Shown one piece after another: positions 21,001 through 24,000 of a stretch of 64,000 nucleotides of DNA. A program made the position numbers. This DNA is from a plasmid. The number at the start of each line of letters is the position of its first letter. The first letter of the stretch is position 1. The DNA is taken from the sequence record NZ_CP014527.1; one strand, written 5' to 3'.

Positions 21001-24000
21001 CCCTTGCAGGGCTTGTAGCAGATCCCTCCCCCCCCACGATTTTGACGATGTCCCAAAGGACATCTTTTTTGATTGTGCAAACCCTATATCACTACCACAG
21101 GTAAATGAAAATGGTAAAATGAAAACAGGTCGGGATAAAAATAAGAGGTGGTGTGCCCTTGTCAGCACCCCTGACGGAATACCGTTGCGCATGCCTGTTC
21201 TCCCACGAGGAATGTGGGTGGCGCACTATGTGCCACAGGGATCGAGCATGGCAGGGCCGCCTCCCTGACCGGGGGAGCATCAAGGGCGGGCATGCATAAA
21301 GCAGCGTCCGGACTATTTTCCCGGGCAGGACGTGCCAAAAGAAAAGCACTCTTCCCCCGCCGCGCTTGCGGCTTAAAGATGGCTTTTTTTCTGCAGTACA
21401 GAGGATGCCCCTATGCCAACAGTTGCCTTGCTTTCCACGCATCGTGGGGGCCTGTCCAATCTCTGCATTTTTCTGCCGTTCCCTGCATGCCCGGACGACT
21501 GCCATTCAACGCCCACGAAAGGCCTTTGGATCTTGCTGAATGTGTGGGCACAACAGACAGGGGAGCGTTGTCCGCAAGGCACCCTGTAAAAACACCCGGG
21601 TTTCTCACGCTTGCGTTGAGCACGGCCCGGCCGTGCGAACAAGCATCCTCATCGAATGAGAACAGGAGGTGGGCCCACCTCCTCTATCCTGCCGGTGGGT
21701 ACGACGGAGAAACTTTGAGATTCTTTGAGACAGGGGCATAGATACTTGCCAATTTCATTTGCACCTCTGTTCGTAGTTATACATAGTGGTCTGAGTAACA
21801 ATAAAACAGAAAACCTACATAATAATTTTGGCGATCAACGCCAGAGACGCAATTCCTCGATCGTTTTTCTGTGGCAATTTAAGTGATGCTTCATCAGGCG
21901 GATGTCGTGGTCGTAATCCTGCTCCGTACGAAACGCGTAATCCGGATCAATATTGCGGCAACGCTACTGTGAAAGGCTGTACGATCAACTCAGAGCGCTT
22001 GGCCTAGTTGTCAATGTCGTCGTACTCTGAAACACGATCTACAATGGATGTGGGCCTGGAACAGCTCATAGTAGAGGTCTACGATGCTCGACCTGAATAA
22101 GTTGCATGCCTGTCGCCGCTTGGCTCAAAACACGTCAATATGTTCGGCTGATGCACCTTCTCTCTGCCGGAATTCGTGGCTTGACGCGAACTTAGGTCGT
22201 TACGCGATCCTCAGAAAACTGCCCCTGACGAGCCCTGAAATCCTTAAGTAGTTTTTCTGTTCCGTTGCTACTCAAATCCCTATTTCTGGCGAATTATTGT
22301 GGCCCTGCTGTTTCCGTCCGTTTTACGTTATCTGTATGTGTTATATAAGGTTAAACCGTTATAGATTCTATTTAGCTAATTCTATCAGTCAGTTAAATGG
22401 ATAATTGTGCGTGATCTACCGAGTCTTATTGCACGCAATATACCGATATACAGGTCGTGTTATCCACAGGCTTGGCCTTGCTTTTTATCATTCGTCAATC
22501 TCACTCGGCGGGGGTAAAAGCTCCATGGTTTTATGAGTGAATACGGCCAAGATGCGATCATTCCGCCCCCAACGCCACGCGTTGGTCCCGAGATCTTCAT
22601 TCATGCGTTGTTGCTCAGGGTCTGACTTGTCGAATGCCAGACCAACCCGATATTGTGGCAGACTATCAGCTTCCGAGATTTTCTTCAGATAAACTTTGAA
22701 ATTACGGAGCTCCATTTCTGAGCCACACCTTTCCGCCAGGCGCGGCAGAGAAATCTTCCATATCGGCTGACGGCCACAATGCTTGCGTGCCAGCTCGTAA
22801 AGCCGCCTTTCCAAGCCCATCTTGAGCCTGAAATACCCGCGATCAATGGTGAGAACACGCCTGTTCTCGACAATTGCACGAAACATCCATTTGTTCAGGG
22901 TCAATTCAACGGCGGCCATTACCCTCTGTCCACGCGAATTGATGCGCTCGACAATCCTGTAGCTGTCGATCCACGAGAATCCCTGGCATTCACGCTCCTC
23001 ATTCTGTCCAGAGGTAATGGTGGTGCGAATAGTGGTGCTCTGCAGCCGGTCCAGTGCAGACATGAAGAGTTCGTAAGCTTGTTTGCCTGTTCCGCGTCCG
23101 GTAAGCCTGAGAAAGTCATAGACCGGAAATTGAATGGTGCGGTTTACAGAGGCGCCACGTTCAAGGCGGCTGTTCCGTTGCTGCTTGACCGCAATTTCTG
23201 AGATGCTAGTCTTCTATGCCGGTGAGCATGTCCTGGACCGTGTTGCTGCTTGACCGCAATTTCTGAGATGCTAGTCTAGAACAAGGTTGAAGCCGCCTAC
23301 CGGCGCGTTGCTGCTTGACCGCAATTTCTGAGATGCTAGTCTTCGGGCCACGACAGGAGGGTTGGGATGATGGTTGCTGCTTGACCGCAATTTCTGAGAT
23401 GCTAGTCTGCCTGCCACACATAGGCGATACCTGCGAGCGTTGCTGCTTGACCGCAATTTCTGAGATGCTAGTCTAACGCTGAAAATAGACCCGGCTGTGG
23501 TTCTGTTGCTGCTTGACCGCAATTTCTGAGATGCTAGTCTGTATTCAGGAAATAGCCAGCGTTATTGGCGTTGCTGCTTGACCGCAATTTCTGAGATGCT
23601 AGTCTTGATCAGCGCTTTGCGCCTTGATTCCACTTGATAATATCGCGATGTAGCGGTGTATTTTTTGCACACATCGCTCCTATAGCAACACCAGTTGCGA
23701 CGGATTTTCGCGGGCCCTCCGCCGGTCTTGGTTCGAAAAGTGAACGATGTTGCGGAACTGACGGTCCGTAAGAGCCAAAATCTGGACGTCACCCTTGTCG
23801 GGCAAGGCCTGTTTAATGCGACGAATGCGGGCCTCAAGAGCCTCCTTCCCATTCACAAAACGACCATAAGCCGAAAACTGGCTGCGTTCAAAGCCTTCAT
23901 CAAGGAGAAAATTCCGGAAGTCCGTAGCAGCCTTGGCCTGGGCCCTGGTCCCGACCGGCAGGTCGAACATGACCAGCACCCACATCAGACGATATCCGCT

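What the first reader, a model, noticed from the sequence alone, without database searches (positions are those of the whole stretch)
21355..21784. Novel repeat family (3 copies in 64 kb) with three tandem perfect palindromes, at module boundaries and next to recombinase genes
Copies lie at 21355-21784, 40498-40683 (3' half only) and 52775-53240. They share the block ..ttctcacgcttgcgttgagcacggcccggccgtgcgaataagcatcctcatggaatgaggacaggaggtgggcccacctcctctatcctgccggtgggtacgacg.. and a conserved end ..catttgcaYctctgtKcgYaRtKatacat. The three palindromes (17, 15 and 18 bp) would fold as three adjacent GC-rich hairpins. Conservation is at the nucleotide level, so it is not coding. Copy 2 lies 0.5 kb upstream of the large serine recombinase gene. 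Copy 3 lies between a truncated nuclease/MTase-motif gene and a resolvase fragment. Copy 1 separates the TPS locus from the repA-CRISPR block. It could be a structured sRNA, a recombinase target site, or a MITE-like element marking island junctions.
Basis: seen in the sequence. Interest (0 to 1): 0.6.

Follow-up and report, generated by a model that had tools for sequence, protein, structure and literature searches.

The report
Three orphan IncP-type transfer origins
The repeat is real, but it is not a new kind of element: its palindrome-rich core is a conjugative origin of transfer (oriT) of the RP4/IncP (MOBP) type, present three times without any relaxase gene nearby, so these DNA segments could probably be moved only by a helper conjugative element.

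Summary
There are three same-strand copies: 21354-21785, 40500-40684 and 52779-53235. They are non-coding and carry the described palindromes, though all three palindromes are perfect only in copy 2.

The 185-bp core (module B) is homologous to the RP4/IncP origin of transfer. It shares the blocks GTTGA-[hairpin]-GAATAAG. An inverted repeat ends exactly 8 bp before the nick position, and the MOBP nick motif CTATCCTG^CC follows. A profile built without RP4 finds the traJ-traK oriT of an IncP plasmid (E 2.5e-7). It also finds sites beside TraI/MobA(P) relaxase operons in Telmatospirillum, Magnetospirillum and two TARA ocean contigs. In those sites the stems keep their pairing while their sequences differ.

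The window has no relaxase, coupling protein or NikA/TraJ gene, so the copies are orphan oriTs that would depend on a helper. Copies 1 and 3 carry mutations in conserved positions and may be decaying.

I found no support for an sRNA or a MITE. The nearby serine recombinase reflects the gene order of this element family (oriT next to a large serine recombinase), not a recombinase target site.

The 5' module A (about 250 bp, copies 1 and 3 only) remains unexplained.

Verdict: new member of a known kind, modest interest.

The parts
21354..21600 (+). Module A, copy 1. Non-coding sequence on the trailing (5') side of the oriT; function unknown. It has a 34-nt deletion relative to copy 3 and to the ortholog L014.
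21601..21785 (+). Module B, copy 1: MOBP/IncP-type oriT. Features: GTTGA 21615-21619; hairpin 1 21620-21636; GAACAAG 21637-21643 (variant of the conserved GAATAAG); hairpin 2 21647-21661 (one mismatch); nic-proximal inverted repeat 21664-21683; nick region CTATCCTG 21684-21691; predicted nick between 21691 and 21692; leading-side flank up to 21785.
40500..40684 (+). Module B, copy 2: the most canonical oriT copy, with all three palindromes perfect. Features: GTTGA 40514-40518; hairpin 1 40519-40535; GAATAAG 40536-40542; hairpin 2 40546-40560; inverted repeat 40563-40582; CTATCCTG 40583-40590; predicted nick between 40590 and 40591.
52779..53050 (+). Module A, copy 3
53051..53235 (+). Module B, copy 3: oriT. 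Features: hairpin 1 53070-53086 (two mismatches); GAATAAG 53087-53093; hairpin 2 53097-53111; inverted repeat 53114-53133; CTATCCTG 53134-53141; predicted nick between 53141 and 53142. The flank diverges from copies 1 and 2 from about 22 nt after the nick.
38265..40016 (-). Large serine recombinase (583 aa) next to copy 2. It is 40% identical over its full length to the recombinase that sits just downstream of the homologous oriT in Telmatospirillum (L033). This is context, not part of the repeat.

Best explanation
Module B of each copy is a cis-acting origin of conjugative transfer (oriT) of the MOBP, RP4/IncP-like class.

Inferred mechanism, by analogy with RP4:
1. A TraI/MobA(P)-type relaxase and a small ribbon-helix-helix accessory protein (NikA/TraJ-like) bind the inverted repeat that ends 8 bp before the nick. 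Neither protein is encoded in this window.
2. The relaxase cuts the + strand in CTATCCTG^CC and stays covalently bound to the 5' end.
3. A coupling protein and a type IV secretion system export the + strand 5'->3'. The DNA to the right of each copy therefore enters the recipient first, and module A enters last.
4. The inverted repeat, re-formed as a hairpin in the transferred strand, helps termination and re-ligation.

Because no relaxosome or mating genes lie nearby, the three copies are orphan oriTs. They are most likely the remains of three mobilizable modules fused into one mosaic replicon or island. They could be mobilized only by a helper element whose relaxase resembles that of TARA contig L025, which has the identical inverted repeat.

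Shown here: homology, architecture, absence of relaxase genes from the window. Inferred: nick position, strand, direction of transfer, present-day activity.
For: 1. The RK2/RP4 oriT sequence lies between traJ and traK in IncP plasmid pBS228. It aligns with all three copies through the blocks CGTTGAGCA, TGCGAATAAG, GGTG..GGCCYAC and CTATCCTGCC.

2. An nhmmer profile was built only from the window copies and TARA L025. It hits the IncP oriT at L027 1498-1585 with E 2.5e-7 in 247 kb. It also hits L033 Telmatospirillum (E 3.4e-8), L032 Magnetospirillum (2.2e-5), L038 TARA (6.8e-16) and L035 Magnetospirillum (2.2e-6).

3. Each of those hits lies 0.3-2.5 kb downstream of a conserved operon: coupling protein, ArdC/primase, NikA-like protein, TraI/MobA(P) relaxase.

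4. All nine sequences share the same architecture: GTTGA-[hairpin 1]-GAATAAG-[optional hairpin 2]-[inverted repeat]-CTATCCTG^CC. The 8-bp arms are 7-8/8 complementary, yet there are five different arm sequences. Hairpin 1 shows compensatory CG->TA and GC->CG changes.

5. The MOBP nick consensus is (C/T)ATCCTG(C/T) (PMC3772185). In RP4 the TraJ-bound inverted repeat lies 8 bp from nic (PMC7314908). Both features are met exactly in all three copies.

6. tblastn and Pfam find no relaxase, NikA/TraJ, TraK, primase or coupling protein in the window.

7. Relaxase-less elements carrying only an oriT are a documented class (PMC10123127; bioRxiv 10.64898/2026.01.13.699239).
Against: - No experiment shows nicking or transfer.
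- Copy 1 has GAACAAG where all other lineages have GAATAAG. Copy 3 has two mismatches in hairpin 1. Some copies may therefore be inactive.
- Only 5 of the 10 relaxase loci fetched had a detectable module-B-type site within the flanks.
- Module A and the conserved right end (CATTTGCAY...ATACA) are not explained by the RP4 analogy.
- In the related elements the oriT points towards the serine recombinase gene. In the window it points away from it.
Confidence: 0.85

Rival explanations
1. The copies are homologous to oriTs but are now inert relics. They would be debris of mobilizable plasmids or ICEs in a decaying mosaic region, with no helper present and no transfer function.
For: The surroundings are full of truncated genes: tpsB, repA, a capsid fragment, an SNase fragment and a resolvase fragment. 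Copies 1 and 3 carry substitutions in positions that are otherwise conserved. No relaxase lies in the window.
Against: The inverted repeat and nick region are 100% identical in all three copies, although the flanks have diverged to about 55-80%. This suggests selection on the core. Copy 2 is intact. The copy 1 locus is conserved in Haematospirillum sp. H4485.
Confidence: 0.3
2. A structured non-coding RNA is transcribed through the hairpins, probably from the minus strand, as the traJ leader is in RP4.
For: The between-copy substitutions inside stems are all C-A on the + strand. On the minus strand they would be G-U pairs. In RP4 the traJ transcript starts 24 nt beyond nic and reads through this region (PMC7314908). 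The minimum-free-energy fold gives a closed three-hairpin multiloop.
Against: There is no Rfam match, even at E<=10. Folding energy is not better than shuffles (z -0.75 and -0.98). No convincing promoter or terminator was found. Only about four substitutions support the strand bias, and transitions give that pattern half the time. Palindromic DNA sites give the same covariation.
Confidence: 0.05
3. The element is a recombination site (att or res) for the adjacent serine recombinases.
For: Copy 2 lies 482 bp from the start of a large serine recombinase gene. Copy 3 abuts a resolvase fragment. A 36-nt stretch left of copy 2 matches the 3' end of the resolvase gene of the H. jordaniae plasmid. 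In three related elements the oriT sits directly upstream of a homologous large serine recombinase.
Against: The conserved blocks are those of an oriT, including the relaxase nick motif. TARA L025 and L038 and RP4 have the site without any serine recombinase nearby. The linkage is explained by the gene order of the element family.
Confidence: 0.04
4. The element is a MITE-like or IS-derived non-autonomous transposable element.
For: It is multi-copy, non-coding, about 190-460 bp long, and lies at junctions of unrelated gene modules.
Against: There are no terminal inverted repeats: local scores are 6-8 against a shuffle mean of about 7. There are no flanking direct duplications. The copies differ in extent (A+B versus B only). 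There is no link to a transposase. The sequence is homologous to oriT.
Confidence: 0.02

Closest known systems
oriT of IncP-1 plasmids (RP4/RK2; MOBP11 relaxase TraI with TraJ)
   Same: The nick region CTATCCTG^CC is the same. An inverted repeat ends 8 bp before nic. The upstream block CGTTGAGCA-[short GC hairpin]-TGCGAATAAG is shared. The order and orientation of these blocks are the same.
   Different: The inverted repeat is a short perfect 9+9 palindrome rather than the imperfect 19-bp RP4 repeat. There is an extra hairpin 2. No traJ or traK flanks the site. No relaxase lies in cis. Identity outside the conserved blocks is low, and blastn against PLSDB found nothing.
oriT-like sites of an uncharacterized Rhodospirillales/marine family of conjugative elements (Telmatospirillum sp. 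J64-1, Magnetospirillum spp., TARA contigs) with the gene order T4CP, ArdC-primase, NikA-like, TraI/MobA(P)
   Same: The full three-hairpin architecture is shared. The nic-proximal repeat is identical to that of TARA L025. The post-nick ACGAC..GAGAAA motif and short phased direct repeats are shared. There is linkage to a homologous large serine recombinase, 40% identical.
   Different: In those elements the site lies downstream of the relaxase operon and points towards the recombinase gene. In the window the relaxase operon is absent and copy 2 points away from the recombinase.
Relaxase-less oriT carriers (pOriT plasmids, iOriT genomic islands)
   Same: An oriT without a relaxase or mating-pore genes. 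Defence genes lie next to the oriT: CRISPR-Cas9, a toxin-antitoxin pair, type III R-M and Abi (PMC10123127; bioRxiv 10.64898/2026.01.13.699239).
   Different: Three copies of one oriT lie within 32 kb in direct orientation. The host is outside the species surveyed in those studies. Mobilization has not been tested.
Ti-plasmid T-DNA borders (VirD2, MOBP2)
   Same: The core nick hexamer ATCCTG is shared (PMC3772185).
   Different: The borders lack the upstream GTTGA..GAATAAG block and the adjacent perfect inverted repeat. They work as a pair that delimits the T-DNA.

Membership tests
MOBP (IncP/RP4-type) origin of transfer | Nick-region consensus (C/T)ATCCTG(C/T) | tested here: met
   CTATCCTGCC is present in all three copies, at 21684, 40583 and 53134. 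The consensus is taken from PMC3772185.
MOBP (IncP/RP4-type) origin of transfer | Inverted repeat on the 5' side of nic, about 8 bp away (TraJ/relaxase binding site) | tested here: met
   AGGAGGTGG-GCC-CACCTCCT ends exactly 8 nt before the predicted nick in every copy. The same geometry holds in six other lineages, each with a different arm sequence. The RP4 geometry is taken from PMC7314908.
MOBP (IncP/RP4-type) origin of transfer | Sequence homology to a characterized oriT beyond the nick hexamer | tested here: met
   A profile built without RP4 hits the pBS228 traJ-traK intergenic oriT with E 2.5e-7. The alignment shows the shared blocks.
MOBP (IncP/RP4-type) origin of transfer | Linked cognate relaxase and accessory genes (for an autonomous or mobilizable element) | tested here: not met
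   No relaxase, NikA/TraJ, TraK, primase or coupling protein is in the 64-kb window. Homologous sites elsewhere are linked to TraI/MobA(P) operons. The window copies are therefore filed as orphan oriTs.
MOBP (IncP/RP4-type) origin of transfer | Site- and strand-specific nicking, and mobilization by a conjugative helper | not testable with these tools
   Needs mating assays and in vitro cleavage.
MITE / IS end | Terminal inverted repeats and target-site duplications | tested here: not met
   Local alignment scores of left end against right end are 6-8, against a shuffle mean of about 7 and a maximum of 12-14. The flanks show no duplicated bases.
Known structured RNA family (Rfam 15) | Covariance-model match | tested here: not met
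   No match at gathering thresholds in the whole window. Over copies 1 and 3, only chance-level hits at E 2-9.

The most novel reading that the evidence does not exclude
The three directly repeated oriTs could divide the replicon into separately transferable cassettes. A helper relaxase that starts at one nick and terminates at the next would excise and deliver circles of 18,899 bp and 12,551 bp. The first would carry the repA remnant, CRISPR-Cas9, RTX genes, parA and the serine recombinase. The second would carry the TacAT toxin-antitoxin pair, RTX genes and others. This would be a relaxase-driven way to move a CRISPR-Cas9 module. Module A could be a new accessory site or RNA needed for it.
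Probability: 0.08. Interest if true: 0.6.

Novelty: new member of a known kind. Interest (0 to 1): 0.3.

Why it matters
This result turns an apparent "novel structured repeat" into a concrete and testable annotation: three helper-dependent transfer origins in a mosaic region of a Haematospirillum-like genome. That region carries CRISPR-Cas9, RTX/TPS toxins, toxin-antitoxin genes and restriction genes.

It also brings to light a little-described family of MOBP conjugative elements in Rhodospirillales and marine metagenomes. Their oriT has a recognizable signature (GTTGA-hairpin-GAATAAG ... inverted repeat-CTATCCTG^CC) and often sits next to a large serine recombinase gene. That signature could be used to annotate orphan oriTs outside the well-studied enterobacterial and staphylococcal systems.

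Tried and rejected
- Rfam at gathering thresholds and at E<=10: nothing.
- blastn of the repeat against PLSDB and INPHARED: only the first 130 nt of module A matched, in the H. jordaniae phage-plasmid. Module B gave no hit.
- Exact 22-mer of module B in one genome per species: 0 hits.
- A 19-mer of module A: chance hits plus Haematospirillum sp. H4485.
- Viral-contig scans: nothing, a cloning vector carrying RP4 oriT, or the same H. jordaniae plasmid.
- Coding hypothesis for module A and module B: rejected. ORFs differ between copies, indels shift the frame, and there are no Pfam hits.
- Minus-strand RNA suggested by G-U-compatible substitutions: kept only as a weak rival, because there are too few events.
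- MITE: rejected.
- Shared res site or promoter with the H. jordaniae resolvase upstream region: no similarity.
- Consensus fold of module A from four sequences: one compensatory pair and a positive covariation term, so uninformative.
- The Thalassospira marina plasmid relaxase locus and four other relaxase loci (L031, L034, L036, L037): no detectable module-B-type site within the fetched flanks.
- Exact-protein lookup of the window's recombinase, to identify the source record: not on record.

Full report
**1. Observation**

Reading the three regions, aligning them and running repeat searches confirm three copies. All are on the + strand: 21354-21785, 40500-40684 and 52779-53235.

The unit has two modules.
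- Module B is 185 bp and is present in all three copies. Copy 1 and copy 2 are 95% identical over it. Copy 3 is about 84% identical to either.
- Module A is about 250 bp on the 5' side and is present only in copies 1 and 3. The two A+B copies are 79% identical overall and differ by a 34-nt and a 9-nt indel.

The palindromes exist, with some corrections. The third is a 20-bp perfect palindrome in all copies. The first is perfect in copies 1 and 2 and has two mismatches in copy 3. The second has one mismatch in copy 1.

The sequence is non-coding. ORFs are not conserved between copies and the indels shift the reading frame.

**2. What it is**

Rfam gave nothing. blastn against plasmids and phages matched only the first 130 nt of module A, in the 33-kb P2-like phage-plasmid of Haematospirillum jordaniae.

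An exact-word scan of metagenomes returned TARA contig L025. Its sequence, read, is a diverged homolog of module B.
- Hairpin 1 is kept by a compensatory change: GCACGGCC/GGCCGTGC becomes GCATGGC/GCCATGC.
- Hairpin 2 is replaced by a different hairpin.
- Hairpin 3 carries an inserted extra hairpin.

The unpaired blocks GTTGAGCA, TGCGAATAAG and CTCTATCCTGCC are identical between L025 and the window. L025 encodes a coupling protein, a primase, a small RHH protein and a 968-aa relaxase directly upstream of the site. That relaxase is of the TraI/MobA(P) family.

The block ...CTATCCTGCC, preceded by an inverted repeat, matches the IncP nick region as I recalled it. I tested this recollection. An 84-nt RK2/RP4 oriT sequence written from memory matched IncP plasmids at 100%. 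In pBS228 it lies between traJ and traK, which is where the IncP oriT is located (PMC2848598).

Aligning this IncP sequence with the window copies shows invariant CGTTGAGCA, TGCGAATAAG, GGTG, GGCCYAC and CTATCCTGCC.

As a check that does not depend on RP4, I built an nhmmer profile from the window copies and L025 only. It hit the IncP oriT with E 2.5e-7.

**3. A family with cognate relaxases**

Homologs of the L025 relaxase are common in Rhodospirillales, including Thalassospira, Magnetospirillum, Telmatospirillum, Roseospira and Caenispirillum. I fetched ten relaxase loci. They show a conserved order: T4CP, (SSB/TraD), ArdC-primase, NikA-like protein, relaxase.

The module-B profile found a site downstream of the relaxase in four of the fetched loci:
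- Telmatospirillum L033 (E 3.4e-8)
- Magnetospirillum L032 (E 2.2e-5)
- Magnetospirillum L035 (E 2.2e-6)
- TARA L038 (E 6.8e-16)

With L025, that makes five loci with a site.

All nine sequences share one architecture: GTTGA-[hairpin 1, GC...GC]-GAATAAG-[hairpin 2, variable; absent in Telmatospirillum and RP4]-[inverted repeat]-CTATCCTG^CC. This is followed by an ACGAC..GAGAAA-like motif and short direct repeats phased at about 11 nt.

The 8-bp arms next to the nick region are 7-8/8 complementary in every lineage, but there are five different arm sequences. Hairpin 1 shows CG->TA and GC->CG double changes.

The literature gives the MOBP nick consensus as (C/T)ATCCTG(C/T) (PMC3772185). In RP4, TraJ binds an inverted repeat 8 bp from nic, and TraI attaches to the 5' end of the transferred strand (PMC7314908). 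All three window copies meet both geometric criteria exactly.

**4. Orphan status and mechanism**

tblastn with the L025 and Thalassospira relaxases, their RHH partners, the primase, the T4CP, and RP4 TraI/J/K/L found no homolog in the window. The only hits were ParA-like matches to TraL. Pfam on all large ORFs agrees. The copies are therefore oriTs without their own relaxosome.

By analogy with RP4, the + strand would be cut after G21691, G40590 and G53141. It would then be transferred 5'->3' to the right. This step is inferred, not shown.

The leading regions would then hold:
- the repA remnant and CRISPR-Cas9 for copy 1,
- TacA/TacT for copy 2,
- an RHH gene, type III R-M and Abi for copy 3.

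Module A would be on the trailing side.

The inverted repeat is identical to that of L025. This suggests a helper relaxase of that specificity.

Copy 2 is fully canonical. Copy 1 has GAACAAG instead of the otherwise invariant GAATAAG, as does its ortholog in Haematospirillum sp. H4485 (L014). Copy 3 has two mismatches in hairpin 1. Some copies may therefore be decaying.

**5. Why three copies at module boundaries**

The region is a mosaic with many truncated genes. The simplest reading is that several mobilizable modules, each with this oriT, were joined together. This is an inference.

The link to serine recombinases reflects the gene order of the element family. In L032, L033 and L035 the oriT lies 200-400 bp upstream of a large serine recombinase gene. 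The window's 583-aa recombinase is 40% identical over its full length to that of L033. In the window, however, the oriT points away from the recombinase gene.

Relaxase-mediated recombination between two oriT copies is known for TrwC, but it is not general among relaxases (PMC3264647). I did not find a sharp switch in similarity exactly at the nick.

**6. Rivals**

- RNA. The only support is that about four stem substitutions would be G-U pairs on the minus strand, and that RP4 transcribes traJ through this region. Folding is no better than shuffled sequence, there is no Rfam hit, and there are no clear promoters or terminators.
- MITE. No terminal inverted repeats and no target-site duplications.
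- Serine-recombinase site. Homologous sites occur without any such recombinase nearby (L025, L038, RP4).
- Inert relics. This cannot be excluded for copies 1 and 3.

**7. Unresolved**

Module A is non-coding. It carries two small palindromes (GCCGCGCTTGCGGC and TCTGCAGTGCAGA) and three CTGCNN motifs spaced 10 nt apart. Its first 130 nt recur next to the parA operon of the H. jordaniae phage-plasmid. Four sequences give no usable covariation.

The conserved right end (CATTTGCAY..ATACA) and the weak extra similarity between the right flanks of copies 2 and 3 (TTGACATTYCAT...GCTGT) are also unexplained.

**8. Verdict**

The element is a new member of a known kind: an orphan MOBP/IncP-type oriT. 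It is not a new repeat family, an sRNA or a MITE. Interest is modest, at 0.3.

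Noticed in passing
window 21354-21600 and 52779-53050; L001 5001-5128 (H. jordaniae plasmid NZ_CP014526 13708-13835): Module A is a separate conserved non-coding block. It has palindromes GCCGCGCTTGCGGC and TCTGCAGTGCAGA, and three CTGCNN motifs at 10-nt spacing. 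Its first 130 nt also occur, without any oriT, just 3' of a parA operon on a P2-like phage-plasmid. It could be an accessory protein-binding region, a centromere-like site or a small RNA. It is unexplained.
   Followed up: partly
L032 7134-7218, L033 6601-6688, L035 7625-7751 (Magnetospirillum, Telmatospirillum): A family of conjugative elements in Rhodospirillales has the gene order T4CP, ArdC-primase, NikA-like, TraI/MobA(P). Its IncP-like oriT is placed 200-400 bp upstream of a large serine recombinase gene, so the integrase would be the first gene to enter a recipient.
   Followed up: partly
window 21692-21730, 40591-40630, 53142-53180; also L025, L032, L033, L035, L038 just after the nick motif: Immediately after the predicted nick, every lineage has 2-5 short direct repeats at about 11-nt spacing. 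The repeat sequences differ between lineages, for example CTTTGAGA x2 in the window and GAAACTYCC x4 in L035. These are probably accessory-protein sites.
   Followed up: no
window 22488-28354: A type II CRISPR-Cas9 locus lies here: cas9 24992-28354, cas1 24021-24932, cas2 23680-24024, all on the - strand, and an array of 7 repeats of 36 nt at 23165-23605. It abuts a repA (RPA family) gene that lacks its N-terminal 95 profile positions. The whole locus sits in the predicted leading region of oriT copy 1.
   Followed up: partly
L014 1-400 (Haematospirillum sp. H4485 contig NZ_JAAVSY010000016): The ortholog of the copy 1 locus is 86% identical and syntenic with the TPS genes. It ends at the contig edge inside module B. 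This suggests the oriT is also multi-copy in that genome and broke the assembly there.
   Followed up: no
window 1-12000 and 41901-42605: P2-like tail genes (tape measure, sheath, baseplate J) and an isolated phage capsid fragment resemble the gene content of the 33-kb H. jordaniae phage-plasmid. The window may be a larger mosaic derived from such a phage-plasmid.
   Followed up: no
window 40442-40477: A 36-nt stretch just left of copy 2 is 94% identical to the 3' end and terminator region of the small serine recombinase gene of the H. jordaniae plasmid (L001 8296-8331). Copy 3 is followed by an internal fragment of a similar resolvase (53364-53567). The resolvase pieces therefore flank the oriT copies on different sides.
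   Followed up: partly
window 29804-36513 and 43407-48459: Very large RTX-repeat genes lie on both strands. Their 27-nt nonapeptide-coding periodicity dominates the repeat output. They are unrelated to the finding.
   Followed up: no
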